NCBI RefSeq assembly: GCF_963921235.1
Contig: NC_086108.1
Span: forward strand, 92,630,001 to 92,694,000
DNA: 64,000 bases
Source: Mobula hypostoma
Lineage: Eukaryota
Direction of reading: 5' to 3'
The translations under genes and the position numbers were made by a program. This document shows positions 851 through 61,249 of this stretch, piece by piece (positions within the stretch are counted from its first letter, which is position 1; each line of letters begins with the position of its first letter). Below the pieces are notes generated by a model. It saw only the letters and a program-made list of their open reading frames with translations. It did not search any database and was not told the DNA's origin.

Positions 851-968
851 CACACACAAAACATCGACTCTCTATTCCTTTCCAGAGATGGTGTCTGACC
901 TGCTGAGTTACTCCAGCATTTCTTGTGTATACTCTGGGTTTCCAGCATCTGCGGAATCTCTCGTGTTT
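851..968 (+). mobile_element. Miniature PLE terminal insertion with 13-bp TSD
   Basis: PLE 3' end plus tail (...tttccagcatctgcggaatctctcgtgttt) flanked by AGTCTCTCTGAAA at 838-850 and 969-981. Confidence 0.8.
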
Positions 969-5086: not shown

Positions 5087-5610
5087 CGGCCTCCTCTACT
5101 GTAAAGATGAAGCCACACTCAGGTTGGAGGAACAACACCTTATATTCCGTCTGGGTAGCCTCCAACCTGATGGCATGAACATTGACTTCTCTAACTTCCG
5201 CTAATGCCCCACCTCCCCCTTGTACCCCATCTGTTATTTATTTATTTATATACACACATTCTTTTTCTCTCTCTCCTTTTTCTCCCTCTGTCCCTCTGAC
5301 TATACCCCTTGCCCATCCTCTGGGTTTTCCCCCCCTCCCCCTTTTCCTTCTCCCTGGGCCTCCTGTCCCATGATCCTCTCATATCCCTTTTGTCAATCAC
5401 CTGTCCAGCTCTTGGCTCCATCCCTCCCCCTCCTGTCTTCTCCTATCATTTTGGATCTCCCTCTCCCCCTCCCACTTTCAAATCTCTTACTAGCTCTTCC
5501 TTCAGTTAGTCCTGACGAAGGGTCTCGGCCTGAAACGTCGACTATACCTCTTCCTAGAGATGCTGCCTGGCCTGCTGCGTTTACCAGCAACTTTGATGTG
5601 TGTTGCTTGT
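5087..5610 (+). mobile_element. PLE 3' fragment (GIY-YIG C-terminus and pLTR), subfamily A
   Basis: Near-identical to 17599-18120; encodes LLYCKDEATLRLEEQHLIFRLGSLQPDGMNIDFSNFR. Confidence 0.9.
5507..5544 (+). ncRNA. Minimal type I hammerhead ribozyme motif
   Basis: tagtc-CTGACGA-agggtctcggcct-GAAA-cgTC-gacta: intact core boxes, stem I tagtc/gacta, palindromic ACGT stem III. Confidence 0.75.
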
Positions 5611-6044: not shown

Positions 6045-6703
6045 GGTGATGTGGCCTTTTATATATTGGCGAGACCCGACGCAGACTGGGAGACCGCTTT
6101 GCTGAACATCTACGCTCTGTCCGCCAGAGAAAGCAGGATCTCCCAGTGGCCACACATTTTAATTCCACATCCCATTCCCATTCTGACATGTCTATCCACA
6201 GCCTCCTCTACTGTAAAGATGAAGCCACACTCGGGTTGGAGGAACAACACCTTATATTCTGTCTGGGTAGCCTCCAACCTGATGGCATGAGCATTGACTT
6301 CTCTAACTTCCGCTAGGCCCCACCTCCCCCTCGTACCCCAGCTGTTACTCATTTTTATGCACACATTCTTTCTCTCACTCTCCTTTTTCTCCCTCTGTCC
6401 CTCTGAATATACCTCTTGCCCATCCTCTGGGTCACCCCCCCCCCCGTCTTTCTCCCTAGGCCTCCTGTCCCATGATCCTCTCGTATCCCCTTTTGCCTAT
6501 CACCTGTCCAGCTCTCGGCTCTATCCCTCCCCCTCCTGTCTTCTCCTATCATTTTGGATCTCCCCCTCCCCCTCCAACTTTCAAATCCCTTACTCACTCT
6601 TCCTTCAGTTAGTCCTGACGAAGGGTCTCGGCCTGAAACGTCGACTGCGCCTCTTCCTATGGATGCTGCTTGGCCTGCTGCGTTCACCAGCAACTTTGAT
6701 GTA
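6045..6703 (+). mobile_element. PLE 3' fragment (GIY-YIG and pLTR), subfamily B
   Basis: Near-identical to 47538-48185; LYIGET...RFAEH coding segment. Confidence 0.9.
6611..6646 (+). ncRNA. Minimal hammerhead ribozyme motif
   Basis: agtc-CTGACGA-agggtctcggcct-GAAA-cgTC-gact. Confidence 0.75.
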
Positions 6704-9700
6704 TGATGATCGTCACAGTGCTGCCCTGCTTATCCAGATGGGAGTAGGCTCTGTTCAGCAGGTAGAGGACAGCATCATCGACTCCAATGTACTCCTGGTA
6801 GGCAAACTGCAGGGGATCAAGGACTGATCTGACCAGGGGTCAGAGGTGAGCCAGGACCAGCCCCTCTGGGGTCTTCATGATGTGTGAGGTCAGGGCCACT
6901 GGACGGTAGTCATCCAAGACTTTCAGTTGCCCCTCCTTGGGTTGCTCCACTTGGGAAAACACCGTGTGTTTTCCATACTGTCGGAACCCTTTCCAGGCAG
7001 AGACTCTGATTGAAAATGCACTGGAGAACTCCAGACAACTGCTCAGCACACTTTTTCAGGACCTTGGGGTTCACGCCATCCGGTCCTGATGCGTTGCCGT
7101 GTCTGAGTTTCCCCAGGGCCCTTCTCACCTGCTCAGTAGTGAAGGTGAGTCCATGATGACTGGGGAGTTGGTGGAAAGTGGGGGCTGGGGGAGGTGAAGA
7201 TCGGGGCGATAGCAGTTGGTATGTGGAGGTGTGGATGGTAGGTGCAGAGCAAGCAAGAGGTGCAGACTGTAGAAGATAGCCTGTCTGAATGAAGTGGGGG
7301 AATGGGCTCAAATCTGGCTCAGGCAAGATGGGCTGTCTGACCTCCCTCTCTGCCATTAGGAATGTGAAATACGAAACTATCCCTGCCATTGAAAAAATTC
7401 ATGCAGGACATCGCGAACTGGATAGAAGCAAGTTATCCTTCATCCTAATGGAATGAAGAAGAAGATCATTTGTTGAGGTTTATTAATATGTGGACACTTC
7501 GAAAACAAGATTACAATACTTCCATTTGAAAGTAATATACAAAGCCGAAGTAGAAGCTAGGTTATTTACAAATCCAGCTTTTTATGAGTGTTGTGAACTG
7601 TATCTGCATCTTCATGTATCTGAAAAGTTCTTGCTCGTCCTCACTTTCTCAGGGATTCCAGTAATGGAAAGCTGGACCATCCAGACAAATGCTTTTTCTC
7701 CTGGCTTCCTGACAGACTGTGGATTATTGCAGGAGCAGTTTATCTTTGAACAGCAGTTGACAGATCGTCAACTCCAGGTCATAGAGTTGTGGAGAGACAC
7801 AGCACAGAAGCAGGTTCTTTGGCCCACACCAACCATCAAGCTTCCATTTTTACAGTAATCCTGCCTAAACTTATTTAATACCGCCCCCCCCCCCCCCACG
7901 TAGTGTGTTGACTCCTTGTCTCCAGAGTCAAGCAGGCCTGGGCTGTTCTGGAACATAAACTAGAGCTAGCTGACAGCATGCAGCATACATGCTGACTCCA
8001 GGACAACCTTGGATCAGGTTCCAGGCCGGTGGAGACTTCTCTCCCCTGATTTTTGTATCTTTGGTTGTAACTGAGATGCGGCTGTGGGTTCCTCACACCA
8101 TCAGAGTAATTCTGGAGAGGACGAGGACCTAAAATGGGTAACACTCCACCAGCTTGTGAAGCGGAACATCTCGGAAGTCAGAGTCACGCAGCAGTGAAAC
8201 AGGGTTTTCGACCCGCTGAATTTGTGCAGATCGTCAAGCTTGCCAGGAGGAAGTGGATTTGCTGACATTTTTCCTTGCTTGCTGTTCAGAGAGGGGCTTA
8301 CAAAGAAGACTCAGTGAACTGGAGCAACTAACAATGTGCTGCAGGAAATCTGCAGGTCAAACAGCATCTGTTGGGGAAAAGGAATTGTCAATATTTCGGG
8401 GGAGTAAACATTTTCTCTCAGACTCAGTGAACTGTTTACCCTTCCAGGACATCTGCTGACTTCTAGAATTCTTTCCTGTAAATCATTTTTGTAACTTTTA
8501 TTATGTTTTTTTTAACATAGCTCTTGGAGTACCGTGGATGTGTCACTGTACTAGTTCTCAGAGAGCTGGTCAGTGACCGGGCCCAAGTTCCAACTCTGCT
8601 TTGTCAGCTGAGGGACTTACACTCAAGAAATGAAATAAATCTGGAGAAATGCGGTGATCACAAAACTACGGGTGGCCCCTCCGTTTTGGACATTCAGATA
8701 AGGGCATTTTGCCTTTACAGAATTCACAAATTACTACCCAAAATTTGAGATACTGAATAAAATGTATTCTCACAGAATTTGGGTGAAAAAAGTAAAGAAA
8801 TAAATTATCTTTTCCCCAATCTTTGTTTCTTGAAGTATGTGCAATTGATTCAGCTTTACGTGACAGAAAACGATGAATATCTAAGAACACAACCCTCCGT
8901 GTGACACGGGGGTTGCCTGCACTGGATTATGTAAACACAGATTTAATTCACCAATGGCACTCAGGGAAGGTATCTGCTCTGCTTATCCAGAATGAGTTTG
9001 ACGTGGCCCAGCCCAGATCCATGGCAACTTGGTTAAGTGTTAAAAGCTCAGCAAACCAGTTCAAGGACAATTCAGAAATAACAACAGAAATGCTGGAAAT
9101 ACTGTAATCAGCTAATCAGGCAGCATCTCCAGAAAGAGAGACGGTTAACGTTTTTCAGTCTGAGGCCCTTTGTCAGAACTGGGAAAGAGAAAAAACAAGT
9201 TATTTCTCAGTAGCAATGGAAGTGGAGGAGGGTTAAGTGTAACAAAGGGAAAGGGTGAAGCCAAGTGGGTTAATCCAACTGGTAAAGTACGCCACAAGGT
9301 TGGAAACTGGAGATCTGAGTAAATTATGTTCAAGGATATTTTAGCTTAGCTGTAAGTGGTGACCCTTCAACAATACCTGCACCCAGCAAGTGAATGAAAA
9401 CACATTTTTATTAATTTTAAAGATTCTACTCTTAAATTATTTCATTGATTTTGTTTGCAAGAGACAGTATGACTAAAATTTTCAGGTTTGCACTGGCTGC
9501 CATTACGTAATGTAAAAATATAAGGTAATATGGTGGCAATGCTAGAAAGCAGCGACTTCTACAGGGCCAGCCAAAGTGTTGTTGTTCTTTTTAAACATAT
9601 TTGTTACGATTGCAAGACGCTGCTGGACATTAAGAACTTAACTACTGTAGGCCTACCCCATCAGCAAGTTGCTCGTTGGCAGAGAAACTGGAGGAGCTGG

Positions 9701-14175: not shown

Positions 14176-14274
14176 GTCCAAATGGGACAAGTGGGATCAG
14201 TGTCGATGGGCAAAAAGAATGGCAAGGATGTGGTGGGCCGAAGAGCCTGTTTTCGTGCTTTACAACTCTGTGGC

Positions 14275-14588: not shown

Positions 14589-15410
14589 TACTTTAGATCT
14601 CCCTCTGAAATTGGCAGCAAAGTACAAATTATAAAAATCCTTGCAAACCAATTGGCATGATAACACAATGCTTGCCCTGTCACCATTTTTTGTAAAGTAC
14701 ATCGAAGCCATAGTAATTGTTCTTTTTGATTGTACATCCACAAAGGAAAGGTTAGGTGGACTTTGCACTTTCCATTTTCTCTGGCCTACACAAACAACAA
14801 GACAATGGAGCCCACACCGTTGCATGAAGCAGACTTCCGTTTTAATATCGGGTGATAAAAAGAAGGGCAAAAGCTGCTGGAGAAACTCTTCTACCTCCAG
14901 TACCTTGTTTGTGTCTCCAGAATCCAGCATCTGCAGTCCATTGTGTCTAACTTTTAAATGGATTCTCAAACGTGAATCAGTTTTGAAACTAGGGCAGCCC
15001 TTGAGAATCTAAATGAATAGTTTGCGCACCTTTCAGATCAAAGGATTTACATGAGAGTCAAGAGGTTTCAGGTTCAAATTACCCCCAGACACACAACTTG
15101 GGCTGCTGCTGCAGGTTAACACAGAGGAAGCTACACTGTAGAAATGTTTTCTCTCAAATAAGGCATTTACTGCAGGTTTCCTCTTAGCTTCTTAGATGGA
15201 ACAGATTATCTGATCGTTACCCACTGACGTTTATAGAAGCTTGCTGTTTGCACATTGTCTTTAATATTTTCAATATTACAACAAGACAATGTTTCAAAAT
15301 GTCTAGATATTGTTCTTGTATGTCCAGAGGTATTAAAGCAAGAGGATTTACATGAACACAGAATATTCTGCAGATGCTGAAAACCACACACAAATGCTGA
15401 AGGAGCTGAG

Positions 15411-15576
15411 ACGAGGAAATCTACAGATACTGGAATTTCAAGCAACACACTTAAAAGTTGCTGGTGAATGCAGCAGGCCAAGCAGCATCTCTAGGAAGAG
15501 GGACAGTCGCCGTTTCAGGCCGAGACCCTTCGTCAGGGCATGAAGGGTCTCGGCCCGAAACGTCGACTATGTGTGT
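15411..15576 (-). mobile_element. Miniature fold-back PLE insertion (~165 bp) with two opposed, damaged hammerhead motifs
   Basis: Tailed minus arm 15411-15537, plus arm 15540-15576 ending gtgtgttgct; direct repeat TGCTGAAGGAG at 15395-15405 and 15577-15587. Confidence 0.75.
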
Positions 15577-16838
15577 TGCTGAAGGAGGTAGACAGCGTCT
15601 ATGGAAGGGAATAAAGAGTCGACATTTCGGGCCGAGACCCTTCATCACGACTGGAAAGGAATGGGGAAGGAGGGCATGCTAGAAGTTGGAAGGTGGAGCC
15701 AGGTGTGTGGGGGAGGGGGAATGAAGTAAGAAGCATGGAGGTGATAGGTGGAAAAGGTCAAAGGCTGGAGAAGAAGGAAGCTGATAGGAGAGGAAAGTAG
15801 ATCATGGAAGAAAGGGGAGGAGGAGGGGCATCATGGGGAGGTGATACGCAGGTGAGGAGTTTAGAAGAGGTAAGAGGGGAGCCAGAGTGGGGAATTGTAG
15901 CAGAGGCGATGGGGGGGGGGGTGAAATTACCTGAAAATTGAGAAATTGATGTTCATGCCAGAAGTTACCCAGATGGAATATGAAGTGTTGCTCCTCCAAC
16001 CTCTGAGAGTGGCCTCATCATGGCAGTAGAGGAGGCCATGGACTGACATGTTGGAATAGGGATTAAAAATAAAATGTTTGGCTACTGGGAAATCCTGCTT
16101 TTTGCAGATAGAGTGAAGGTGCTTTACAAGTGGTCCCCCATCTATATTAGGTCTCACCAGTGCAGAGGAGGCCACATCAGGAGCACTGGATACAGTACAT
16201 GGCCCCAACAGATGACCCCACTCAGGATCAATAGGACATTGACTCCCACACCATAAGTTCCTCATCTCTACAAATCTGAATGTCCAGGTAGGCCCATTGT
16301 TTCTGTCTGCTCCTGCCCCACTGAACTGCATACTGTGACTCCATTTTTTCCCCCTTGGTTCAGTCTCTTTCCACCTATGTTCACAAAACTTCACTTGCTC
16401 TCAATCTCCTCAGCAACTTTTAATTCCCGGGCCCTGGCCATCTCCATGGATGCACAGTCCCTATACACTTCTGTCCCCCTAACAAGAAGACCTTAAATTT
16501 CTCTGTTTCTTTCTCAACAACAGACCCGACTGGTTTCCTTCCACCCCCGGCTTCTTCTGTTTGGCAGAACCGGACCTTGTCCTCAACAACTTCTTCGGCT
16601 CCTCCCACTTTCTCCAAACTCAAGGTGTAGTATTGGGCACCTGCATGAGCCCCAGCTATGCCAGCCTTTTTGTTGGCTGTGTGGAACAATCTGTGTTCCA
16701 AGCCTTCCCTAGTAATGCTCCCCAACTGTTTCTGCACTACATCAGTGCTGAGCTCATCAATTTCATCCAACTTTGCCTCCAGCCGCCACCGTGTCCTTAA
16801 ATTCATTTGGTCCATTTCTGACACACCTCTCCCTTTCT

Positions 16839-18158
16839 ACTATAAGCCTACTGACTCTCACAGCTATCTGGATTATTCCTCTTCTCACCCTGTCTCTTGC
16901 AAAAATGACATCCCCTTCTCGCAATCCCTCCGTCTCTGCCGCATCTGCTCTCAGGATGAGGCTTTTCATTCCAGGACGAGGGAGATGTCCTTTTTTAAAG
17001 AAAGGGGCTTCCCTTCCTCCACCATCAACTCCGCTCTCAAACGCATCTCCCCCATTTCACGCACATCTGCTGTCACTCCATCCTCCTTGTCACCCCACTA
17101 GGAATAGGGTTCCCCTGGTCCTCACCTACCACCCCAGCAGCCTCCGGGTCCAACATATTATTCTCCGTAACTTCCGCCACCTCCAAGCACCACTAAGCGC
17201 ATCTTTCCCTCTCCCCCTCTCTGCTTTCCGCAGGGATCGCTCCCTACGCGACTTCTTTGTCCATTCGTCCCCCCCATCCCTCCCCACCGATCTCCCTCCT
17301 GGCACTTATCCTTGTGAGCGGAACAATTGCTACACATGCCCTTACACTTCCTCTCTTACCACCATTCAGAGCCCTAGACAGTCCTTCCAGGTGAGGCGAC
17401 ACTTCACCTGTGAGTCGGCTGGGGTGATATACTGCGTCCGGTGCTCCCGATGTGGCCTTCTATATATTGGTGAGACCCGACGCAGACTGGGAGATCGTTT
17501 TGCTGAACACCTACGCTCTGTCCACCAGAGAAAGCAGGATCTTCTAGTGGCCACACATTTTAATCCCACATCCCATTCCCATTCTGATATGTCTATCCAC
17601 GGCCTCCTCTACTGTAAAGATGAAACCACACTCAGGCTGGAGGAACAACACCTTATATTCCGTCTGGGTAGCCTCCAACCTGGTGGCATGAACATTGACT
17701 TCTCTAACTTCCGCTAATGCCCCACCTCCCCTTCGTACCCCATCTGTTATTTATTTTTATACACACATTCTTTCTCTCTCTCTCCTTTTTCTCCCTCTGT
17801 CCCTCTGACTATACCCCTTGCCCATCCTCTGGGTTTTTCCCCCTCTCCCCCTTTTCCTTCTCCCTGGGCCTTCTGTCCCATGATCCTCTCGTATCCCCTT
17901 TTGCCTATCACCTGTCCAGCTCTTGGCTCCATCCCTCCCCCTCCTGTCTTCTCCTATCATTTTGGATCTCCCCCTCCCCCTCCCACTTTCAAATCTCTTA
18001 CTAGCTCTTCTTTCAGTTAGTCCTGACGAAGGGTCTTGGCCTGAAACGTCGACTGTACCTCTTCCTAGAGATGCTGCCTGGCCTGCTGCATTCACCAGCA
18101 AATTTGATGTGATGTGTGTTGTTTGAATCTCCAGCATCTGCAGAATTCCTCGTGTTTA
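16839..18158 (+). mobile_element. Young 5'-truncated PLE (thumb, Cys linker, GIY-YIG, pLTR), subfamily A
   Basis: ORF 16773..17717 ends YPCERNNCYTC...GVIYCVRCSRCGLLYIGETRRRLGDRFAEH; TSD CCCTTTCT at 16831-16838 and 18159-18166. Confidence 0.9.
18019..18054 (+). ncRNA. Minimal hammerhead ribozyme motif
   Basis: agtc-CTGACGA-agggtcttggcct-GAAA-cgTC-gact. Confidence 0.72.
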
Positions 18159-21189: not shown

Positions 21190-21420
21190 GTTCTGTGTAA
21201 CGGACCAGGGACGTGTGTGCCTCCCTGTATATCTGCCCTGTTGCTCGGAATATTTGGAATGAAGAAGGTGCTGATCCTCTACGTCGAGAGCATCTGCCGT
21301 GTGGAAACGTTGTCCCTTTCTGGGAAGATATTGTACTGTCTGTCAGATTACTTTTTCGTCCAGTGGCCCACGCTGCAGAAGAAGTACCCTAAGGCAGTGT
21401 TCCTTGGTCGACTGGTTTGA
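21190..21420 (+). CDS. ALG14: Terminal coding exon of UDP-N-acetylglucosamine transferase subunit ALG14
   Basis: Polypyrimidine acceptor ttgtgtttccttgcag|G (phase 0), then VLCNGPGTCVPPCISALLLGIFGMKKVLILYVESICRVETLSLSGKILYCLSDYFFVQWPTLQKKYPKAVFLGRLV-stop, matching the vertebrate ALG14 C-terminus (NGPGTC, YVESICRV, VQWP motifs). Upstream exons were not found in the window. Confidence 0.95.
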   Translation, partial: VLCNGPGTCVPPCISALLLGIFGMKKVLILYVESICRVETLSLSGKILYCLSDYFFVQWPTLQKKYPKAVFLGRLV

Positions 21421-23569: not shown

Positions 23570-23985
23570 TTGCTCCCCTTCTTACCCCTTTCCTTCTTCT
23601 CTTCCCCCTTCTTACCCCTTCTCCTTTTACCCCTCTTACCTCTTCTCCTCACCTGCCCATCACCTCCCACTGATGCCCCTCCTCCTTCCCTTTCTCCCAT
23701 GGTCACTCTCTTCTCCTATCAGATTCTTCCTTCTACAGCCCTTTACCCCTTCCACCTATCACCTCCCAGCTCCTCATGTCATGCCTCCTCCTCTTACCCC
23801 CCTTACCTGGTCTTAATTAACATCTACCAACTTGTACTCCTCCCCCCCCCCACCTTATTCTGGCTTCATCGCTCTTCCTTTCCAGTCCTAATGAAGGGTC
23901 TGGGCCTGAAACGTCAACTACTTATTCCCCTCCATTGATGCTATTTGACCTGCTGAATTCCTTCACCATTTTATGTGTGTTGCTT
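23570..23985 (+). mobile_element. Old PLE pLTR remnant with mutated hammerhead (23884-23919)
   Basis: Pyrimidine-rich pLTR, agtc-ctaatga-agggtctgggcct-gaaa-cgtc, ends gtgtgttgct. Confidence 0.7.
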
Positions 23986-29208: not shown

Positions 29209-29339
29209 CAAACCAGAGAAAATTTACTGATGCTGGAAATCCAAGCAACAAACACCAAATGCTGGAGGATCTCAGCAGGCCAGGCAGCATCCATGGAAAA
29301 AAGTACAGTCAATGGTTTGGGCAGAGACCTCGTGTGTTG
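29209..29339 (-). mobile_element. Miniature fold-back PLE terminal insertion with 14-bp TSD
   Basis: Tailed minus arm plus inverted stub gtgtgttg; CTATTATTGGAATA at 29195-29208 and 29340-29353. Confidence 0.82.
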
Positions 29340-31882: not shown

Positions 31883-33337
31883 CTTCCTTCTCAGTCCTGA
31901 GGAAGGGTCTCGGCCCGAAGTGTTGACTGTTCATTCTTTTCCATAGATGCTGCCTGACCTGCTGAGTCCCTCCAGCGTGTTGTGAGTGTTGCAGCAAATA
32001 AATAGGTTATGAAACAATTTACGCTGCTATACACTAGGTTCATTAAATTATGCATATGGATTTAAGGCTTCACTTCAAGTACATTATAAGTAGCAGAATG
32101 AATATTTACGCTGGGAAATTAAACAGTAACAATTAAAACAAGCATATACTGTAAGTACTTCTGCGTTTGTCAATTGTTCCTGTTTCGTACCCCGTAACTG
32201 GGTTGCCAAACCAGCAGAAATGGATCACTCAGTTGGAGTTTGGAGTACTAGAACTAAGAAAGTTTTATTAAAGAAACAAGCAGCACAGTAATCGAAAGGA
32301 TAATAAATGCAACAGTTCAGCGATTATAAACACACGTGCACAAAATTAAGATAACAGCATCAATCAAGCTTTATCGTTGTCTAGGGGTAAATGACCAAAT
32401 TTCAAAGTGACTCAAAGTTCAGTCCAGTTTAGTAGTTCAGTTCGCAGTAATCGTTTCCATGGCGATGGACAACGTGGGAGAAGAGAGAGAGGGAACAGGA
32501 ACAACTGATCATTCAGACACGGCTTCACTCACAGACCGGCGATATGGCTCCCAAGCAGCTTTTGGGCAGGTCCTTGGTGATGTCACCTGAGGTCACCGAC
32601 CGTGACCCCTCCTCCAGATGCGGCCGATCCTCTGCAGTGAACCCAGCACCCAGGCAAGGGCGGACACACACCGGGTTCCCGCTGATCGTACCTTTCCACC
32701 CTGGCCGTTGTCTGGTACTTCCCACCGACTCGTGAGAGGCGCACCGCTTCCAGGGTCTCGTTACCTCGGGTGGCGTGTGTGTCCTGCCTTAGCGAACCGG
32801 TCCCTTTTTATCCCCCTGCTGGGGTATTGCCTGTCCATCACTTCAAACAGTTCAAGGTTCAAAGGGGGGAGCCGCTCCAGACAGCTCTCTCTCCCCTGTC
32901 CCTTCATTACACATCTCTAGACGCTGCTCCATTGTTCCTTATCTCTCCTTCCCCTGAGGGCAGGTGGCAGACCACTTGCTGATGTCACTGATGCTAACCC
33001 AGGCCAGCAAACATCTTAATTTTATGTGTATTCTCGTCTCTTCCTTCTCAGTCCTGAGGAAGGGTCTCGGCTCGAAGTGTTGACTGTTCATTCTTTTCCA
33101 TAGATGCTGCCTGACCTGCTGAGTCCCTCCAGCGTGTTGTGAGTGTTGCAGCAAATAAATAGGTTATGAAACAATTTACGCTGCTATACACTAGGTTCAT
33201 TAAATTATGCATATGGATTTAAGGCTTCACTTCAAGTACATTATAAGTAGCAGAATGAATATTTACGCTGGGAAATTAAACAGTAGCAACTAAAACAAGC
33301 ATATACTGTAAGTACTTATGCGTTTGTCAATTGTTCC
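31883..33337 (+). repeat. 298-bp direct duplication (31883-32180 and 33040-33337) flanking a solo LTR
   Basis: Both copies run cttccttctcagtcctgagg...caattgttcc; about 4 substitutions seen by eye. Confidence 0.92.
32181..33039 (-). mobile_element. Solo LTR, same family as 10669-11604, with a non-canonical right end
   Basis: Starts TGTTTCGTACCCCG, colinear with the first copy, ends ...ttctcgtct instead of ...ttctcgtcaca. Confidence 0.88.
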
Positions 33338-44005: not shown

Positions 44006-46161
44006 ATGAGTTAAAGTTCAAAGTTAAAATTCAAAGTAAATTTTATTATCAAAGTACATATATGTCACCATATACAGCCCTGAGATTCATTTTCTTGTGG
44101 GTATTCTCAGCAAATCTACAAAATAGTAATTATAAGAGTTAATGAAAGACTACCCCCAGCTGGGGCATTCAACCAGAATGCAACAAACTGCGCAAGTGCA
44201 AATACAAATAAATAGCAATAAATAACGAGAACATGAGATGAAGAGTCCTTGAAAGTGACCATTGGTTGTGGAAACATTTCAACGATAGGGCAAGTAAGTT
44301 GAGTGAAGTTATCGCCTTTTGAAGATGACATGTTCTAGCTGTGTAGGATGTTATTGAAACCAGGTGTGTAATATTGTTACAGTTCCAGTCGCCATACTGG
44401 ATGTGATTATGAAGCCAAGAGTTTGACACTAGGGGATCATTCAATAGTCTTAAACCAGCGGGTTAGAAGCTATCCTTGAGCCCAGTGATACATGTTTTCA
44501 GTCTTCCCTATCTTCTACCTGTTGGGAGAGAATGTTCATTGTGGGTAGTGTGGGAGAGGTCTTTGATTATGCTGGCTGCTTTAGTGAGGTCATGGAGTGG
44601 AGGCTGGTTTCCATTACGTGCTGTTGCTCCACAACTCTCAAGTTTCCTGTGGACATATACAGAGCAGTTGCCATGCCAAAGCATTACAGATCCAGATAGC
44701 AACACACATCAAAGTTGCTGGTGAACGCAGCAGGCCAGGCAGCATCTCTAGGAAGAGGTGCAGTCGACGTTTCAGGCCGAGACCCTTCGTCAAGACAAAC
44801 TGAAGGAAGAGTGAGTAAGGGATTTGAAAGTTGGAGGGGGAGGGGGAGATCCAAAATGATAGGAGAAGACAGGAGGGGGAGGGATAGAGCCAAGAGCTGG
44901 ACAGGTGATAGGCAAAAGGGGATACGAGAGGATCATGGGACAGGAGGGCTGGGAAGAAAGACAAGGGGGGGGGACCCAGAGGATGGGCAAGAGGTATATT
45001 CAGAGGGACAGAGGGAGAAAAAGGAGAGTGAGAGAAAGAATGTGTGTGTAAAAATAAGTAACAGATGGGGTACGAGGGGGAGGTGCGGCCTTAGTGGAAG
45101 TTAGAGAAGTCGATGTTCATGCCATCAGGTTGGAGGCTACCCAGACGGAATATAAGGTGTTGTTCTTCCAACCTGAGTGTGGCTTCATCTTTACAGTAGA
45201 GGAGGCCGTGGATAGACATGTCAGAATGGGAATGGGATGTGGAATTAAAATGTGTGGCCACTGGGAGATCCTGCTTTCTCTGGCGGACAGAGCGTAGATG
45301 TTCAGCAAAGCGGTCTCCCAGTCTGCGTCGGGTCTCACCAATATATAAAAGGCCACATCGGGAGCACTGGACGCAGTATATCACCCCAGTCGACTCACAG
45401 GTGAAGTATTGCCTCACCTGGAAGGACTGTTTGGGGCCCTGAATGGTGGTAAGGGAGGAAGTGTAAGGGCATGTGTAGCACTTGTTCCGCTTACACGGAT
45501 AAGTGCCAGGAGGGAGATCAGTGGGGAGGGATGGGGGGGACGAATGGACAAGGGAATTGTGTAGGGAGCGATCCCTACGGAATGCGGGGGGGGGAGGGAA
45601 AGATGTGCTTAGTGGTGGGTTCCCGTTGGAGGTGGCGGAAGTTACGAAGAATAATATGTTGGACCCGGAGGCTGGTGGGGTGGTAGGTGAGGACCAGGGG
45701 AACCCTATTCCTAGTGGGGTGGCAGGAGGATGGAGTGAGAGCAGATGTACGTGAAATGGGGGAGATGCGTTTAAGAGCAGAGTTGATAGTGGAGGAAGGG
45801 AAGCCCCTTTCTTTAAAAAAGGAAGACATCTCCCTCGTCCTAGAATGAAAAGCCTCATCCTGAGAGCAGATGCGGCGGAGACAGAGGAATTGCGAGAAGG
45901 GGATGGCGTTCTTGCAAGAAGAGGAATAGTCCAGATAGCTGTGAGAGTCAGTAGGCTTATAGTAGACATCAGTGGATAAGCTGTCTCCAGAGACAGAGAC
46001 AGAAAGATCTAGAAAGGGGAGGGAGGTGTCGGAAATGGACCAGGTAAACTTGAGGGCAGGGTGAAAGTTGGAGGCAAAGTTAATAAAGTCAACGAGTTCT
46101 GCATGCGTGCAGGAAGCAGCGCCAATGCAGTCATCGATGTAGCGAAGGAAAAGTAGGGGAC

Positions 46162-47800
46162 TTTATCCGCTCAGGGGATCTCCCATCCACTGCTACCAAC
46201 CTTATAGTTCCCACACCCCGCACTTCCTGTTTCTACCTCCTACCCAAGATCCACAAACCTGCCTGTCCTGGCCGACCTATTGTCTCAGTTTGCTCCTGCC
46301 CCACTGAACTCGTTTCTGCATTACTCGACACAGTTTTATCCCCCCTTTGTTCAATCCCTTCCTACCTATGTTCGTGACACTTCTCACGCTCTTAAACTTT
46401 TCGATGATTTTAAGTTCCCTGGCCCCCACCGCTTTATTTTCACCATGGATGTCCAGTCCTTATATACTTCCATCCCCCATCAGGAAGGTCTCAAAGCTCT
46501 CCGCTTCCTTTTGGATTCCAGACCTAATCAGTTCCCCTCTACCACCACTCTGCTCCGTCTAGTGGAATTAGTCCTTACTCTTAACAATTTCTCTTTTGGC
46601 TCCTCCCACTTCCTCCAAACTAAAGGTGTAGCTATGGGCACCCGTATGGGTCCTAGCTATGCCTGCCTTTTTGCTGGGTTTGTGGAACAATCTATGTTCC
46701 GTGCCTATTCTGGTATCTGTCCCCCACTTTTCCTTCGCTACATCGACGACTGCATTGGCGCTGCTTCCTGCACGCATGCAGAACTCGTTGACTTTATTAA
46801 CTTTGCCTCCAACTTTCACCCTGCCCTCAAGTTTACCTGGTCCATTTCCGACACCTCCCTCCCCTTTCTAGATCTTTCTGTCTCTGTCTCTGGAGACAGC
46901 TTATCCACTGATGTCTACTATAAGCCTACTGACTCTCACAGCTACTTGGACTATTCCTCTTCTCACCCTGTCTCTTGCAAAAACGCCATCCCCTTCTCGC
47001 AATTCCTCCGTCTCCGCCGCATCTGCTCTTAGGATGAGGCTTTTCATTCTAGGACGAGGAAGATGTCTTCCTTTTTTAAAGAAAGGGGCTTCCTTTCCTC
47101 CACTATCAACTCTGCTCTTAAACACATCTCCCCCATTTCACGTACATCTGCTCTCACTCCATCCTCCCGCCACCCCACTAGGAATAGGGTTCCCCTGGTC
47201 CTCACCTACCACCCCACCAGCCTCTGGGTCCAACATATTATTCTCCGTAACTTCCGCCACCTCCAACGGGATCCCACCACTGAGCACATCTTTCCCTCCC
47301 CCCCTCTCTCTGCATTCCGCAGGGATCGCTCCCTATGCAACTCCCTTGTCCATTCGTCCCCCCCATCCCTCCCCACTGATCTCCCTCCTGGCACTTATCC
47401 GTGTAAGTGGAACAAGTGCTACACATGCCCTTACACTTCCTCCCTTACCACCATTCAGGGCCCCAAACAGTCCTTCCAGGTGAGGCATCACTTCACCTGT
47501 GAGTCGACTGGGGTGATATACTGCGTCCGGTGCTCCCGATGTGGCCTTTTATATATTGGTGAGACCCGACGCAGACTGGGAGACCGCTTTGCTGAACATC
47601 TACGCTCTGTCCGCCAGAGAAAGCAGGATCTCCCAGTGGCCACACATTTTAATTCCACATCCCATTCTGACATGTCTATCCACGGCCTCCTCTACTGTAA
47701 AGATGAAGCCACACTCAGGTTGGAGGAACAACACCTTATATTCCGTCTGGGTAGCCTCCAACCTGATGGCATGAACATCGACTTCTCTAACTTCCACTAA
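46162..47800 (+). pseudogene. PLE polyprotein (5'-truncated): RT, Cys-rich linker, GIY-YIG endonuclease
   Basis: MDVQSLYTSIPH, GVAMGTRMGPSYA, RYIDD, PFLDL, CKWNKCYTC, VIYCVRCSRCGLLYIGET. ORFs 46280..47032 and 47063..47800 share a frame and are split by one TAG (CAG in sister copies); probable frameshift near 46320. Confidence 0.9.
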
Positions 47801-48093
47801 GGCCCCACATCCCCCTCGTACCCCATCTGTTACTTATTTTTATGCACACATTCTTTCTCTCACTCTCCTTTTTCTCCCTCTGTCCCTCTGAATATACCTC
47901 TTGCCCATCCTCTGGGTCCCCCCCCCTTGTCTTTCTTCCCAGCCCTCCTGTCCCATGATCCTCTCGTATCCCCTTTTGCCTATCACCTGTCCAGCTCTTG
48001 GCTCTATCCCTCCCCCTCCTGTCTTCTCCTATCATTTTGGATCTCCCCCTCCCCCTCCAACTTTCAAATCCCTTACTCACTCTTCCTTCAGTT

Positions 48094-48129
48094 AGTCCTG
48101 ACGAAGGGTCTCGGCCTGAAACGTCGACT
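48094..48129 (+). ncRNA. Minimal hammerhead ribozyme motif
   Basis: agtc-CTGACGA-agggtctcggcct-GAAA-cgTC-gact; the mirror copy at 44762-44797 (minus) has C3>U. Confidence 0.75.
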
Positions 48130-49974
48130 GCACCTCTTCCTAGAGATGCTGCCTGGCCTGCTGCGTTCACCAGCAACTTTGATGTGTGTTGCTTGAATTT
48201 CCAGCATCTGCAGAATTCCTGTTGTTTACAGATCCAGATAGGATGCTTTCAAAGTTCAAAGTACGTTTAATTATCAAAGTATTATATGTCCCCATGAGAT
48301 TTACCTCCTTATCACAAAACAAAGAAATGCAAAAGAACCTATTGAAATATAGAAGACTGTCAAACACCCAATGCGCTGGGGGAAAATGTGCAGACAATAA
48401 AAATAAGCAAATAACATTCAGAACCGAAGTTCATGAAAGAGAGTCCACAGCCACGAAGTCAGTCAGAGCCGATTCAGGAACCCGCTAGTTGCAGGCCATA
48501 GTCTCAGTTCAGTGCAGAGCTGAGCAAAGCTCAGGGAGCAGCGAGCTGAACTGACATGTCCCTCGCCTCCAGTCCCGACACCCTGACCTTTTCAATCCGG
48601 CCAAATAGTTCCTTGTTCTCAGACCTGGGCCCTGCTGCTTTAACACAGTCTTGCGCATAGGATCCATGTGTATTAATAAAAATTAGTAAGGTTGTTGAAA
48701 GGGACATGCCAAACTTCTTCAGCTTCCTGAGGAGGTAGAGGTGGGTGAGCTTTCATGGTGTCAGGATGGTTGGACTAGGACTGGCTGTTGATGATGTTCA
48801 TTCCAAGGTACTTGCAGCTCTCACACTATCAACCTTAACATCGTTGATTAGACAGGAGCAAGTACACCCCTTCCTGAAGTCAATGGCCAGCTCTTTTGTT
48901 TCGTTGACATTGAGGGAAAGGATGTTGCCATGACACCCTGTTACTAAGCTCTCAACCTCCTTCCTGTTCTTCAATTCATCATTACTTGAGGTGGAGCAGA
49001 ATCCGGCTGCATGCTCCTGAGTGTACAGAGGGTAGAGTTGGGGGCTGAGGATGTAAACTTGTGGAGCAGAAGTGCTTTGAATAATTGTGGCAGAGGTGTT
49101 GCTACCCGTCCTTACTGATTTGCAGTCTGTTGCTTTGGAAGTGTGAAAGGCATTTGGACAGGTTTATGAATAGAAAAGGTTGAAAGCAAATCGAGGTATT
49201 TCTGCAGTGATTGGCATGCAGGAGTTGCGCCAAAGGGCCAGTTTCCGTGCTGTAGAACTCTAGGAATCTTCGACACTCTGCTTGGAACATTGCCTGCCAT
49301 TTCTACTTATTGTTGCCTTTGGAATTGATGTGTTCATTCACTTACACCCTCCCACTTGGCTGCCTGTCCCTTGTACTTTTCCACACAGCATCTATTCATC
49401 GCAGAGAGTATAGTACAGAATAAAATCAATGTTCACCAGTGCACACTTTCTACCTTGCTATTTTTTTTCAGTTCAAATTCCTCATTCCTTGTATATTTTG
49501 TTACTACAATGAAGGAGTCTATTCAGCCCATTGACTCAATGCAGGTGCTAAGCACAATTGCGTGGCACACATCTTCGGACTGTGGGAGAGCACCCGGAGG
49601 AAACCCATGCAGTTACGGAGAGAACACACAGAATCCGTACCGGCAGCAGGAGGAATTGAACCCCCATCACTAGTACTGTAAAGCGTTGTACTTTGCCACA
49701 GTGCCACCTAATATCCACCCAGACCTTTCCTATCCGTATACTTGCCCAAGTGTCTTTTAAATATTGTTACTCTGCTTTCCATAAACACCTCCTCTGGCAT
49801 CTTGTACCCTAGATGCATCACCTTCTGCCTGAAGAAGATACCCTTCAAAGTTCCTTCAAAACCTTTCCCGTCTCACCTTAAACCTACGCCCTCTTTTTTA
49901 TTATTCCCTTTCCCTGGGAAAAAAGGACTGTGCAAATTCACCCTAACTATTCCCTTATTAAGTTTTAAAACCTC

Positions 49975-51945
49975 TATTCAGGATGCTCTAGTCAGGAGGA
50001 AGAAGGCAGCATACATGAGGTTTGGGAAGCAAGGATCAGATGGGTCTATTGAGGAATATAGGATAGCAAGAAAGGAGCTTAAGAAGCGGCTGAGAAGAGC
50101 AAGAAGGGGGCATGAGAAGGCCTTGGCGAGTAGGGTAAAGGAAAACCCCAAGGCATTTTTCAATTATGTGAAGAAAAAAAAGATGACAGGAGTGAAGGTA
50201 GGACCAATTAGAGATAAAGGTGGGAAGATGTGGCTGGAGGCTGTGGAAGTGAGCGAGGTCCTCAATGAATACTTCTCTTCGGTATTCACCAATGAGAGGG
50301 AACTTGATGATGGTGAGGACAATATGAGTGAGGTTGATGTTCTGGAGCATGTTGATATTAAGGGAGAGGAGGTGTTGGAGTTGTTAAAATACATTAGGAC
50401 AGATATGTCCCGGGGCCTGACAGAATATTCCCCAGGCTGCTCCACGAGGCAAGAGAAGAGATTGCTGAGCCTCTGGCTAGGACCTTTATGTCCTCGTTGT
50501 CCACGGGAATGGTACCGGAGGATTGGAGGGAGGCGAATATTGTTCCCTTGTTCAAAAAAGGTAGTAGGGATAGTCCGGGTAATTATAGACCAGTGAGCCT
50601 TACATCTGTGGTGGGAAAGCTGTTGGAAAAGATTCTTAGAGATAGGATCTATAGGCATTTAGAGAATCATGGTCTGATTAGGGACAGTCAGCATGGCTTT
50701 GTGAAGGGCAGATCGTGTCTAACAAGCCTGATAGAGTTCTTTGAGGAGGTGACCAGGCATATAGATGAGGGTAGTGCAGTGGATGTGATCTATATGGATT
50801 TTAGTAAGGCATTTGACAAGGTTCCACACGGTAGGCTTATTCAGAAAGTTAGAAGGCATGGGATCCAGGGAAGTTTGGCCAGGTGGATTCAGAATTGGCT
50901 TGCCTGCAGAAGGCAGAGGGTGGTGGTGGAGGGAGTACATTCAGATTAGAGGATTGTGACTAGCGGTGTCCCACAAGCATCTGTTCTGGGACCTCTACTT
51001 TTCGTGATTTTTATTAACGACCTGGATGTAGGGGTAGAAGGGTGGGTTGGCAAGTTTGCAGACGACACAAAGGTTGGTGGTGTTGTAGATAGTGTAGAGG
51101 ATTGTCAAAGATTGCAGAAAGACATTGATAGGATGCAGAAGTGGGCTGAGAAGTGGCAGATGGAGTTCAACCCGTAGAACTGTAAGGTGGTACACTTTGG
51201 AAGGACAAACTCCAAGGCAGAGTACAAAGTAAATGGCAGGATACTTGGTAGTGTGGAGGAGCAGAGGGATCTCAGGGTACATGTCCACAGATCCCTGAAA
51301 GTTGCCTCACAGGTGGATAGGGTAGTTAAGAAAGCTTATGGGGTGTTAGCTTTCATAAGTCGAGGGATAGAGTTTAAGAGTCGCGATGTAATGATGCAGC
51401 TCTATAAAACTCTGGTTAGGTCACATTTGGAGTATTGTGTCCAGTTCTGGTCACCTCACTATAGGAAGGATTTGGAAGCATTGGAAAGGGTACAGAGGAG
51501 ATTTACCAGGATGCTGCCTGGTTTAGAAAGTATGCATTATGATTAGAGATTAAGGGAGCTAGGGCTTTACCATTTGGAGAGAAGGAGGATGAGAAGAGAC
51601 GTGATAGGGGTGTACAAGATGATAAGAGGAATAGATAGAGTGGATAGCCAGCGCCTCTTCCCCAGGGCACCACTGCTCAATACAAGAGGACATGGCTTTA
51701 AGGTAAGGGGTGGGAAGTTCAATTGGGATATTAGAGGAAGGTTTTTTATTCAGAGAGTGGTTGGTGCGTGGAATGCACTGCCTGAGTCAGTGGTGGAGGC
51801 AGATACACTAGTGAAGTTTAAGAGACTACTAGACAGGTATATGGAGGAATCTAAGGTGGGGGCTTATATGGGAGGCAGGGTTTGAGGGTCGGCACAACAT
51901 TGTGGGCCGAAGGGCCTGTACTGTGCTGTACTATTCTATGTTCTA
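49975..51945 (+). mobile_element. 5'-truncated CR1 LINE nested in an older opposite-strand CR1
   Basis: ORFs 50488..50949 (PEDWREANIVPLFKKG...YRPVSLTS...QHGF...DFSKAFDKV), 50956..51177, 51187..51546 and 51574..51885. Confidence 0.93.
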
Positions 51946-52986: not shown

Positions 52987-53225
52987 CAAGAGAAGATCTG
53001 CAGACGCTGGATATCCGAGCAACACACACAAGTGCTGAAGGAACTCAGCAGGCCAGGCAGCACCTATGGAAAAAAGAACAATTGACATTTTGGGCTGAAA
53101 CCCTTCGGCAGGACTGGAGAAAAAGAAAGCTGGGGAAAAGATTTAAAAGGTGGGGGGAGGGGAGAGAGAAACACCAGGTGATAGGTGAAACCTGGAGGGG
53201 AAGGGATGAAGTAAAGAGCTGGGAA
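52987..53225 (-). mobile_element. Old PLE pLTR remnant (tailed end, degenerate hammerhead near 53080-53115)
   Basis: gatctgcagacgctgg...agcaacacacacaagtgctgaaggaactcagcaggccaggcagc. Confidence 0.75.
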
Positions 53226-58050: not shown

Positions 58051-58909
58051 ACGCGACTCCCTTGTCCATTCATCCTCTCCATCCCTTCCCACCGATCTCA
58101 TGCCCTTACACTTCCTTCCTCACCACCATTCAGAGCCCCAGTCAGTCCTTCCAGGTGAGACGACACTTCACCTGTGAATCGGCTGGGGTGATATATTGTG
58201 TCCGGTGCTCCCGATGCAGCCTTCTATATATTGGCGAGACCCGACGCAGACTGGGAGATCATTTCGCTGAACACCTACGCTCTGTCCGCCAGAGAAAGCA
58301 GGATCTCCCAGTGGCCACACATTTTAATTCCACGTCCCATTCCCATTCTGATATGTCTATCCACAGCCTCCTCTACTGTAAAGATGAAACCACACTCAGG
58401 TTGGAGGAACAACACCTTATATTCCGTCTGGGTAGCCTCCAACCTGATGGCATGAACATTGACTTCTCAAACTTCCGCTAATGCCCCACCTCCCCCTCGT
58501 ACCCCATCCGTTATTTATTTATATACACACATTCTTTTTCCCTCTCTCCTTTTTCTCCCTCTGTCCCTCTCACCATACCCCTTGCCCCTCCTCTGGGCTT
58601 CCCCCCCCCTTCTTTCTCCCTGGGCCTCCTGTCCCATGATCCTCTCATACCCCTTTTGCCAATCAACTGTCCAGCTCTTGGCTCCATCCCTCCCCCTCCT
58701 GTCTTCTCCTGTCATTTTAGATCTCCCCCTTCCCATCCCACTTTCAAATCTCTTACTAGCTCTTCTTTCAGTTAGTCCTGATGAAGTGTCTAGGCCCGAA
58801 ACGTCGACTGTACCTCTTCCTAGAGATGCTGCCTGGCCTGCTGCGTTCACCAGCAACTTTTATGTGTGTTGCTTGAAATTCCAGCATCCTGCAGATTTCC
58901 TTGGGTTTT
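58051..58909 (+). mobile_element. PLE 3' fragment (subfamily A) inserted in the Gypsy pol region
   Basis: ORF 58062..58481 GIY-YIG; short direct repeat CTATT at 58046-58050 and 58910-58914. Confidence 0.88.
58774..58809 (+). ncRNA. Minimal hammerhead ribozyme motif (weakened stem II)
   Basis: agtc-CTGATGA-agtgtctaggccc-GAAA-cgTC-gact. Confidence 0.6.
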
Positions 58910-61249
58910 CTATTTTACCTTTGATATGTTTGAATTTTCCAATACCATCCCTGAACACTGTTCTGGCATCGTCCAGTACCTTTCTTAATTTGCTTTCAGT
59001 AACTCTTTTGCAGGGGATGTGGCATGCAAATGGTGGATGGATCTCCAGTCAAGTTGTAGTTGTCTCAGCAAATCACTTCCCCACAATGCTGGTCCCCTTG
59101 GTTTTACCAGATACAAGCCCAATGTATCTTGTTGCTTGTTGTATTTCACTGTTACAAATGACATTCCAACAGCAGTTATCTTTTCTCCAGTCTAAGTTCT
59201 TAGTTGGATATCACAGGCTTCAGTTCAGTGTCTTTGAAATGCTGTTCAAACTCATTTTGTGGAATGACTGAAAATTCAATTTTAATTAATTTGCCATTCA
59301 CTTTTGGTGTAAACCATATTACCTATCTATTGTTAGTGTTCACATTGTAAATCTCAAGGTTACTCAGTCCTGTGTCAGTTTCAACAGATATTTCATCAAC
59401 AGCATTCAGATTACAGCTATTTTTTTGAAATTGCAACTTCAATTTTTTTTTAATCTTTTTCTCTTCCTTGTGCAGCCCATTTATTTTTATCTGTTTGACA
59501 TTCTGTTTGTATGTGTCCTACTTACTACAAGTTTTGCCTTTAAATCTGCATTGATCTGGTTTATGTGAGCCCTTGGCACAACAAAAAGACAATTTGTTTG
59601 GCCAGGCCAGTTTCTGTTTAGAAGTTGTAATTCTGTTCATGCTCACTTTCACTCCTGACTACAAGACAATTGTGTCTCTTTCTGCTGTTTTCATTGATAC
59701 AGCTATTTCAACTGCTCTGTGACACATAAGTTATGCTTCATTTAGGAGCCATTTTTTGAATAATTTCTTGTAAGATTCCACAAGCAAAATGATCTTTCAG
59801 CGTATCATTAAGCCCATTACCAAACTGACAATTCTCAGACAATTTCTTCAATTCAGCCAAGAATGCTGAAATGGACCGCCTTTCCTTTTGATTGTGCTTA
59901 TGAAACCTAAAATGTTCTGCAATCAACGATGGTTTTAGTTCTAAATGTTCCTGCATTACTTTCATGATTTCAGCCGAGCTCATTTTGACTAGCTTGGTTG
60001 GTGCATTTAAATTTCAAAACAAACTCAGCAAAACTGGTACTCGTTTCTCATTGGCTATTTCATTTGCTTTAAAATACTGCTCAGTCCACTTGCTATATAA
60101 TATCCAGTTGTCTGTTGTGTAAGCAGAGGCGTCAATCTTTCTGATGTAGCCAACCATTTCTGCTCTTTTTTTAATGATATTACCCACACTCACTAATAAT
60201 GACCCGATGAATTGCTCCATTTTTCTGTCTTTTTTAACTCATCGTCTCTGTCCCTTCCTGAAGAAACATGTGCTGCGTTGCTTTAATTTATTTGACCTTT
60301 TCTCACTCTCCTTTTTAAAACTCTAATGTCTCACTGTGCTTCAATAGGTAGGTAGTTGTCTTGGGTTCATTTTAAAAATACTTTGCCGCCACTATTAACT
60401 CCAAAACATTAAACTAATTGAAAGGAAAAGATGGGAGTTTAAAAAATGAGTCTAACTTCGTGTTTACTTTTAGTGAAGCACACACATATCATGTGACAGT
60501 GTCATGTTTTATGCAATTTGCTTATTTTTACATATAACCTGCAATGAATTATTTAAATGAACAAGAATGCTGAATCAAACAATATATTTACAATATCACT
60601 CAATTACAGAATTAAATACAGAAAATGTTCAAAGCATTCAACAAGTCAACTGGCATCTGTGGAAAGAGAGCCAGATGTAATGTTTCAAATGGATGAGTCT
60701 TTTTCGGAATTGGGAAAGACCAGATGAAGGATCTTTGACCTGAAATATTAACTGTGTCTTCCCACAAATGCTGCCTGACCAGTCAAGAGTTTCCAGTATT
60801 TCCCATCTAGGTAATGTTTTCCAAACATTGCTCTGATTCTTTTTCCAATGACTATAATTCTGCAGTCCTCTGGGTATGAATAGTTCCCTTTTATTTACTC
60901 CATCCAAAGCCCTGGTCCAAGTGTCAGTTCATCCTGTTCTACTGCTCGGATGGAACACCTTTACATAGTTTCAACAAAATCTTCTTGGACTAATCTAAGC
61001 AGATGCAAATTGCAGGAAGTCTATAAGTGAATCTGTAATCCAATATATGCAGCTGATGGCTGGTAGCAATTGTTGAAATTGTTTTGGTTTGAGAAATGGA
61101 AAAATGAAATCTTGGCAATTTTCCTTACTGAACAAATACCATGGAATCATTTTAAGATGGATTGCATTTGCCAAAAATATCTTTGGGTATGTTGTCATAC
61201 AATGGAATGAGCTCTGTTGTGATAAATATATTGATGGAAAAGAATTATA

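What the first reader, a model, noticed from the sequence alone, without database searches (positions are those of the whole stretch)
48094..48129. PLE family carrying an ultra-minimal, probably dimer-dependent hammerhead ribozyme (at least 5 intact and about 10 decayed copies in 64 kb)
Seen: the PLE 3' ends contain agtc-CTGANGA-stemII-GAAA-CG-TC-gact, with intact cores at 5507-5544, 6611-6646, 18019-18054, 48094-48129 and 58774-58809. Mutated copies lie at 15505-15537, 15540-15569, 15617-15652, 23884-23919, 31893-31928, 33050-33085, 44762-44797 and near 9143, 53080 and 60716. Stem III is only A-CG-U, which cannot fold as a monomer but is a self-complementary 4-mer. Known: minimal type I hammerheads occur in PLE pLTRs and are thought to cleave as dimers. 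Inference: this is a recently active ribozyme-retroelement system in this lineage, with cleavage predicted after GUC (for example after 48125). I cannot tell whether it has been described for this taxon.
Basis: partly seen in the sequence, partly recalled or inferred. Interest (0 to 1): 0.7.

Follow-up and report, generated by a model that had tools for sequence, protein, structure and literature searches.

The report
Ray Penelope copies with minimal hammerhead
The motif is really there, at the ends of broken copies of a Penelope-type jumping gene in a ray genome; it matches an already described kind of tiny RNA predicted to cut itself, and these truncated copies are likely inactive leftovers.

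Summary
48094-48129 has a full hammerhead core, helices I and II and a loopless ACGU helix III; the predicted cut is 48125/48126. All 15 listed places were found (60718 only weakly), plus two stubs. Four copies pass a strict descriptor (0 in 30 shuffles); 58774 has a helix II mismatch. The carrier is a 5'-truncated Penelope-like element (RT, Zn linker, GIY-YIG; likely Neptune) in a Mobula-type ray. The 48094 copy is one arm of a head-to-head insertion (44700-48225, 16-bp target duplication), so its partner motif is on the other strand. Related elements carry the same motif after 17 of 37 ORF ends, with compensatory changes. This is the min-HHR of Cervera and De la Pena 2014; only the taxon is absent from their list. 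'Recently active' is not shown: no intact ORF, no direct tandem, arms 2.1% apart, 0 of 17 copies start at the cut site, and folding predicts the core is masked. Cleavage is untested; no raw RNA reads were available. The scan has noted this family many times before on other DNA (76 findings, at least 22 genomes).

The parts
48094..48129 (+). Minimal type I hammerhead motif: helix I 48094-97/48126-29; core C3-A9 48098-48104; extra A 48105; helix II 48106-09/48114-17 (G.U closing, 4-nt loop); G12-A14 48118-20; palindromic helix III 48121-24; C17 48125; predicted cut 48125/48126
46153..47800 (+). 5'-truncated PLE ORF remnant: RT, CX4CX2C linker, GIY-YIG endonuclease; frame break near 46343-46368 and premature stop at 47030-47032
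47801..48093 (+). Pyrimidine-rich 3' UTR / pLTR; its last 14 nt are predicted to pair with the hammerhead core
48130..48193 (+). Spacer and conserved downstream block, up to the first of two 3' end sites
48194..48225 (+). 32-nt optional tail, present on this arm only; second 3' end site
   Evidence: loose ends at 48227-48230
44700..46161 (-). Inverted second arm of the same insertion (equals 46719-48193), without the tail
44762..44797 (-). Motif of the inverted arm, C3>U and one helix I change
44684..44699 (+). Left copy of 16-bp target-site duplication
48226..48241 (+). Right copy of 16-bp target-site duplication
5508..5543 (+). Intact motif in truncated copy 5086-5609 (likely in the last ALG14 intron, sense)
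6611..6646 (+). Intact motif in truncated copy 6048-6708 (separate insertion, 1103 nt after the former)
18019..18054 (+). Intact motif (loop II change) in decayed copy of about 16257-18160
58774..58809 (+). Core intact, helix II mismatch, in truncated copy of about 58044-58901
15406..15576 (.). Mini head-to-head insertion (minus arm to 15537, plus arm from 15540) folding back inside the motif; 11-bp TSD at 15395-15405 / 15577-15587; landed in the tail of an older copy
15617..15652 (-). Decayed motif of an older subfamily (C3>G, ATGT), target of the mini insertion
23884..23919 (+). Decayed motif, older subfamily (G5>A)
31893..31928 (+). Decayed motif, older subfamily (A15.1>G)
33050..33085 (+). 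Duplicate of the former within a 298-bp local duplication (31883-32180 / 33040-33337, 98.7%)
53080..53115 (-). Decayed motif (A6>C, G12>A)
9143..9182 (-). Strongly decayed motif
60718..60753 (+). Weak, strongly decayed stub that seems to begin at the motif's 5' edge
   Evidence: not found
851..968 (+). Stub beginning inside the motif, with an 8-nt inverted arm; 13-bp TSD at 838-850 / 969-981
29209..29339 (-). Stub beginning inside the motif, with an 8-nt inverted arm; 14-bp TSD at 29195-29208 / 29340-29353
21191..21420 (+). Context: last coding exon of ALG14, 100% identical to a Mobula-labelled protein cluster

Best explanation
The motif is a minimal hammerhead sequence in the terminal repeat of a Penelope-like retrotransposon (likely Neptune clade) of a ray; it is predicted to cut after C48125 only in the parent element's RNA, likely as a pair and with help from the element's protein, and the truncated copies here are likely silent. 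Shown: the anatomy, its place 298 nt after the ORF stop, its fixed place in related elements, compensatory changes between distant families, and the insertion structure. Inferred: a tandem source locus makes an RNA with two motifs; two ACGU stretches pair to make helix III of a double hammerhead; the RT/endonuclease cuts both DNA strands 11-16 bp apart and copies mostly uncut RNA from two internal start sites, leaving head-to-head, 5'-truncated arms with the tail on one arm. After insertion the copies decay neutrally, many changes falling on the CpGs of the motif.
For: All 12 core bases, extra A after A9, ACGU palindrome fit the published consensus. RT + CX4CX2C linker + GIY-YIG upstream; best named hits Chiloscyllium 72-76%. 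Same motif 70-301 nt after 17 of 37 related ORF ends; 0 in 50 shuffles and 0 on the opposite strand. L009 has the motif on both sides of a full ORF. L025/L065 carry the sequence printed for the Acropora Neptune element, and the window RT is 50-58% identical to those loci. 9 of 11 pairs show two-sided changes, helix III switches ACGU to AUAU in L058. Contigs of four runs break from the reference at the motif's edges, 48094 and 48130. Four two-armed insertions with 11-16-bp TSDs. For silence: monomer forms a core-blocking helix, p 0.96-0.98; with 10-20 nt of upstream pLTR helix I falls to 0.03 or less for 48094; 0 of 17 copies start at G1.1; published relatives cut weakly as dimers or only with protein.
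Against: No cleavage or expression data. Covariation comes from sequences picked by a descriptor that demands pairing; inside the window family there is no compensatory change in helix I. 20 of 37 related ORF ends had no motif. The downstream block is also fairly constant (13.6% departures), so the motif is not the only conserved part. Folding z-scores are weak (-0.4 to -1.5) and the energy model lacks the core's tertiary contacts. No Rfam hammerhead family matched. Clade call rests on motifs and an indirect link, not a labelled tree.
Confidence: 0.75

Rival explanations
1. The motif is kept as a protein-binding or transcription-start element of the pLTR and no longer cleaves in this lineage, even in source copies.
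For: 0 of 17 copies begin at the cut site, 5 of 17 begin inside the motif or at its 5' edge. Double-hammerhead fold is about 10 kcal/mol worse than two monomers and 18.8 worse than the co-fold minimum, the largest gap among intact motifs tested. In the anole element cleavage was not needed for insertion and no reads ended at the cut site.
Against: All catalytic bases, a cleavable NUH triplet and the helix III palindrome are kept from cnidarian-type relatives to rays; the anole motif does cut with protein and loses this with C3G or G8C.
Confidence: 0.15
2. One reading: a recently active ribozyme-retroelement system whose intact copies cut RNA as dimers, including 5508 + 6611 (and 18019) together in the ALG14 pre-mRNA.
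For: Three identical 36-nt motifs; three descriptor-passing copies lie in sense in what is likely the last ALG14 intron, two of them 1.1 kb apart; very many family contigs in four runs.
Against: No intact ORF or direct tandem in the window; young copies differ 3.4-9.8% from each other and the paired arms 2.1%; upstream masking predicted; survival of intact sense copies in a housekeeping gene's intron fits low activity (weak argument).
Confidence: 0.08
3. Chance resemblance amplified by repeat copying.
For: One ancestral chance match would be copied with the repeat; no Rfam hit.
Against: Same motif at the same place in distant relatives with different helix sequences; identical architecture to the published consensus.
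Confidence: 0.02

Closest known systems
Minimal hammerheads (min-HHR) in pLTRs of metazoan PLEs (Cervera and De la Pena 2014, PMC4209133; read parts 1-2 of 4 and supplement parts 1-2 of 3)
   Same: CUGANGA + extra base, short helix I, loopless palindromic 15.1-16.1 stretch, mostly single motifs in truncated copies, opposite-strand pairs; G.U at 10.1-11.1 also occurs in their alignment.
   Different: No chondrichthyan among the species rows I read in Table S1 and Fig. S3; helix II here is short (4 bp) and the sequence family is not listed.
Neptune-clade EN+ PLEs (Craig et al. 2021, PMC8557442, passages; Acropora digitifera Neptune motif in PMC4209133 supplement)
   Same: RT, CX2-5CxxC linker, C-terminal GIY-YIG with C/C/H/H residues, inverted 5'-truncated arm, one-sided 30-40-bp tail.
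   Different: Only truncated copies here; Nematis, which shares a linker, was not excluded by a tree.
PAc Poseidon element of the anole (Frangieh et al. 2024, PMC11167929; read parts 1-2 of 4)
   Same: Protein-assisted hammerhead, both-strand nicking, two internal RT start sites that define the tail, uncut RNA as main template: all fit the two 3' end sites and two-armed insertions here.
   Different: Different clade (no Zn linker); here nothing was tested and the ORF start is not in the window.
Non-LTR retrozymes (Li, Clavereau, Pollet 2026, 10.64898/2026.07.22.740005; read parts 1-3 of 5)
   Same: Type I hammerheads tied to PLE pLTRs; found in the one chondrichthyan sampled; 1 of 9 dimers tested cut.
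   Different: Retrozymes are tandem non-coding units; none here. Their closed supplements may name the species and PLE class.

Membership tests
Minimal type I hammerhead (min-HHR) | Core C3-U4-G5-A6-N7-G8-A9, G12-A13-A14-A15.1, U16.1-H17 | tested here: met
   12 of 12 positions in 5 of 17 copies
Minimal type I hammerhead (min-HHR) | Open-ended helix I and a helix II | tested here: met
   4-5 bp and 4 bp in 4 copies; two-sided changes across relatives
Minimal type I hammerhead (min-HHR) | Palindromic 15.1-16.1 stretch without loop | tested here: met
   ACGT here; CG 12, TG 2, TA 2 in 16 relatives
Minimal type I hammerhead (min-HHR) | Extra base between A9 and 10.1; G10.1-C11.1 usual | tested here: met
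   Extra A at 48105; 11.1 is U in 9 and C in 8 of 17 copies; U also in published rows
Minimal type I hammerhead (min-HHR) | Self-cleavage after H17, as dimer or with protein | not testable with these tools
   No raw RNA reads; folding predicts competing folds
EN+ Penelope-like element | Single ORF with RT and C-terminal GIY-YIG | tested here: met
   RVT_1 E 7.5e-5, GIY-YIG E 1.9e-4, both just under Pfam cut-offs; 287 homologues
EN+ Penelope-like element | Direct pLTRs from tandem or partial tandem | tested here: inconclusive
   None in the window; present in relative L009
EN+ Penelope-like element | Inverted 5'-truncated arm, one-sided 30-40-bp tail, TSD | tested here: met
   44700-48225, 32-nt tail, 16-bp TSD
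EN+ Penelope-like element | Intron in the 5' UTR / pLTR | not testable with these tools
   Acceptor-like pyrimidine tract + AG at the motif's 5' edge seen; no RNA reads
Neptune clade | CX2-5CxxC linker between RT and EN | tested here: met
   CX4CX2C in three copies; feature taken
Neptune clade | RT phylogeny inside Neptune | tested here: inconclusive
   No labelled references; 50-58% identity to loci bearing the published Acropora Neptune motif
Non-LTR retrozyme | Non-coding tandem units each with a hammerhead | tested here: not met
   No such array; copies are dispersed PLE ends
Rfam hammerhead families | Covariance-model match | tested here: not met
   No hammerhead family at E<=10

The most novel reading that the evidence does not exclude
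The ray hammerhead is a position-gated switch. In the 3' repeat the upstream pyrimidine tract pairs with its core, so read-through RNA is never cut; only an RNA that starts at the motif's foot folds helices I and II, and even then a GAYG/CGUC helix holds it off until the element's dimeric protein pairs two ACGU palindromes. Pairing the RNAs this way would also hand the enzyme two templates to prime both ends of a staggered DNA cut, which would explain the head-to-head arms and the one-sided tail in one mechanism.
Probability: 0.1. Interest if true: 0.5.

Novelty: new member of a known kind. Interest (0 to 1): 0.15.

Why it matters
Little as it stands: minimal hammerheads in Penelope-like ends are described from cnidarians to reptiles, and this adds a ray family. 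Its use is as material: a very abundant family with clean two-armed insertions and a short motif makes the open question of what PLE hammerheads do easy to test with four small constructs and end sequencing.

Tried and rejected
No whole genome is held for the window, so no genome-wide count or subfamily consensus test. Rfam: no hammerhead match. Exact-pattern scans of metagenome and viral contigs: 0. Sequencing runs: no RNA holder listed, all 23 rows are contigs; expression, RNA starts, splicing and cut ends could not be examined. Per-position variation rejected as evidence: only three loop II changes were listed while common variants at 48102 and 48117 were not, which points to the tool's end filter. 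Loose ends at 48126 are not among the 24 rows shown (126 not shown) or (2505 not shown): inconclusive. Retrozyme array rejected. 5508/6611 as a tandem pLTR pair rejected: separate truncations with unrelated DNA between. 44797 as dimer partner rejected: opposite strand and C3>U. One-strand A-to-G editing scar in the long arms not seen (one A>G per arm). Splice acceptor at the motif's 5' edge: seen in window copies, not general in relatives; untested. Lunse et al. 2016 not held; known only from a reference line and a review passage. One search was a script typo, rerun. Pfam scan covered 92 frames (11 + 81) of 279 frames of 70 aa or more.

Full report
Observation. The motif is at 48094-48129 on the + strand. 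In hammerhead numbering: helix I 48094-97/48126-29, C3-A9 at 48098-48104, an extra A at 48105, a 4-bp helix II closed by G.U, G12-A14 at 48118-20, ACGT at 48121-24, C17 at 48125. Six window matches lie within 3 mismatches, against 0 in 100 shuffles. A strict descriptor passes 4 copies (C3 at 5512, 6615, 18023, 48098); 30 Markov shuffles gave no hit of this kind. 58774 keeps the core but has a helix II mismatch. All other listed places were found; five are on the minus strand; 60718 is weak. With two further stubs I aligned 17 copies, which stand for at most 14 insertions.

Carrier and host. Upstream of the motif lie an RT remnant and a GIY-YIG domain (both just under Pfam's cut-off) joined by a CX4CX2C linker. 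The best named homologues are Chiloscyllium proteins at 72-76%, then cnidarian and mollusc ones. Linker plus C-terminal endonuclease define Neptune or Nematis (PMC8557442, passages). Loci L025 and L065 carry the motif printed for the Acropora Neptune element, and the window RT is 50-58% identical to them, so Neptune is likely; no labelled tree was possible. The window holds the last exon of ALG14 (21191-21420), 100% identical to a Mobula-labelled cluster and 96% to Hypanus, so the host is a devil-ray-type batoid. No earlier ALG14 exon is in the window, so 1-21190 is likely its last intron.

Insertion anatomy. 44700-48225 is one insertion: a plus arm (about 46162-48225) and an inverted arm (44700-46161), 5' ends joined, flanked by a 16-bp duplication at 44684 and 48226. 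Only the plus arm has the last 32 nt. Three mini insertions repeat this with 11-, 13- and 14-bp duplications and short inverted arms (15406-15576, 851-968, 29209-29339). 3' ends fall at two sites, near 48193 and near 48225 (contig loose ends at 48227-48230). Inverted arms, TSDs and a one-sided 30-40-bp tail are described for PLEs (PMC8557442 and PMC3846280, passages), and the anole enzyme nicks both strands and starts at two internal RNA sites that bound the tail (PMC11167929). The second motif of this insertion is on the other strand and has C3>U, so it is no dimer partner; read-through would pair the arms into a 1.46-kb duplex (inference).

Is it a selected structure? In 80 related metagenome loci the descriptor found 17 hits in 13 loci, 16 with a two-base helix III centre (CG 12, TG 2, TA 2), and 0 in 10 shuffles. 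Of 37 ORF ends with 200 nt or more downstream, 17 had the motif 70-301 nt on, 20 had none; 0 in 50 shuffles and 0 on the opposite strand. Here the distance is 298 nt. L009 has it on both sides of a full ORF. On 19 motifs (7 of 17 window copies, 12 of 16 locus motifs; near-duplicates left out) 90.9% of cells pair and 9 of 11 pairs change on both sides, above all 500 shuffles for percent paired and score; this is partly circular, as the descriptor demands pairing, and no compensatory change occurs within the window family. In 13 window copies departures from the majority are 12 of 156 at core sites, 20 of 208 in helices, 137 of 361 upstream, 45 of 180 in the spacer and 39 of 286 in the next block (copies were picked by likeness, and two upstream flanks are junctions). 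In four contig runs loose ends pile at the motif's edges: 88, 10, 458, 16 before 48094 and 114, 15, 457, 12 behind 48130; low agreement upstream suggests a mix of a second subfamily and insertions that begin there.

How it likely works. ACGU cannot close on itself, so helix III would have to form between two motifs, as published for this class, where single motifs did not cut and dimers cut weakly (PMC4209133; review PMC6765202, passages). Folding adds two predicted blocks. In the monomer G5-G8 pairs with 15.2-17 at p 0.96-0.98; the double-hammerhead fold scores -9.5 against -20 for two monomers, a gap of 18.8 kcal/mol to the co-fold minimum, compared with 5.3-17.1 in nine relatives. With 10 or more upstream bases helix I of 48094 drops from 0.69 to 0.03; 5508 and 18019 drop to 0.03 at 20 bases. 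These energies omit tertiary contacts and z-scores are weak. None of 17 copies starts at the cut site; 5 start inside the motif or at its edge; the rest run through it, so uncut RNA was the template, as in the anole. Best reading: a conditional, likely protein-assisted ribozyme of the source element; copies here are passengers.

Age. The long arms differ at 31 of 1456 sites, 27 private to one arm, 11 at CpG: one source, then decay of about 0.9% per arm. At the epaulette shark rate of 7e-10 per generation (CI 1.4-14.1e-10; PMC10587355, passages) that is about 13 million generations, 6.6 million at the upper rate; my arithmetic, another species' rate, so only an order of magnitude. Other young copies differ by 3.4-9.8%. 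The ORF has a stop and a frame break. Active copies elsewhere cannot be excluded.

Known or new. The class is published (PMC4209133). No chondrichthyan appears in the Table S1 and Fig. S3 rows read. A 2026 preprint reports retrozymes in one chondrichthyan and Neptune/Poseidon PLEs in five vertebrate classes; its closed supplements may name this family. Searches found no paper on a shark or ray PLE hammerhead; subscription journals, Repbase and Dfam were not searchable. Earlier notes of this scan describe the same family many times (76 findings in at least 22 genomes; many in this genome; none by sequence). Two of their leads (5' ends near the motif's foot, two-ended priming with TSDs) I checked on this window and found partly and fully consistent.

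Verdict. Real motif, known kind, new taxon record at most, activity unshown. Interest 0.15.

Noticed in passing
window:21191-21420 (+): Last coding exon of ALG14, 100% identical to a Mobula-labelled protein; three intact hammerhead motifs lie in sense in what is likely its last intron (5508, 6611, 18019).
   Followed up: partly
window:31883-32180 and 33040-33337: 298-bp direct duplication (98.7%) that starts 10 nt before a decayed motif, includes about 190 nt of flank and encloses 860 bp of other repeat; large target duplication, transduction or local duplication, not resolved.
   Followed up: partly
window:15540-15576: Plus arm of the mini insertion jumps from just after helix I to the first 3' end site (about 54 nt skipped) and carries N7=T and 11.1=C like the older copy it landed in, unlike its sister arm; two templates or CpG decay, not resolved.
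   Followed up: partly
window:48080-48097 and other copies: Pyrimidine tract plus AG right at the 5' edge of helix I looks like a splice acceptor, as the intron end in D. virilis Penelope maps to helix I; not general in relatives.
   Followed up: no
L075, minus strand, C3 at 2030: A canonical type I hammerhead with 6-bp helix I and a palindromic CAGCTG helix III insert, retrozyme-like, near a PLE fragment.
   Followed up: no
L014, L025, L058: Marine invertebrate-type relatives also show motifs on both strands flanking the ORF, the same head-to-head layout as 44700-48225.
   Followed up: partly
window:14526-14585: Near-perfect 60-nt hairpin (weak Rfam mir-8186 hits, far below gathering score), probably a small inverted-repeat element.
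   Followed up: no
window:24463-25092 (-): Tc1/mariner transposase remnant (HTH_Tnp_Tc3_2, DDE_3).
   Followed up: no
window:2030-2617, 13351-14196, 38759-39670, 49712-51546, 53658-57828: Several decayed LINE-type RT remnants (RVT_1, ALKBH8_N-like and GDSL-like hits); CR1/L2-type labels are recalled, not tested.
   Followed up: no
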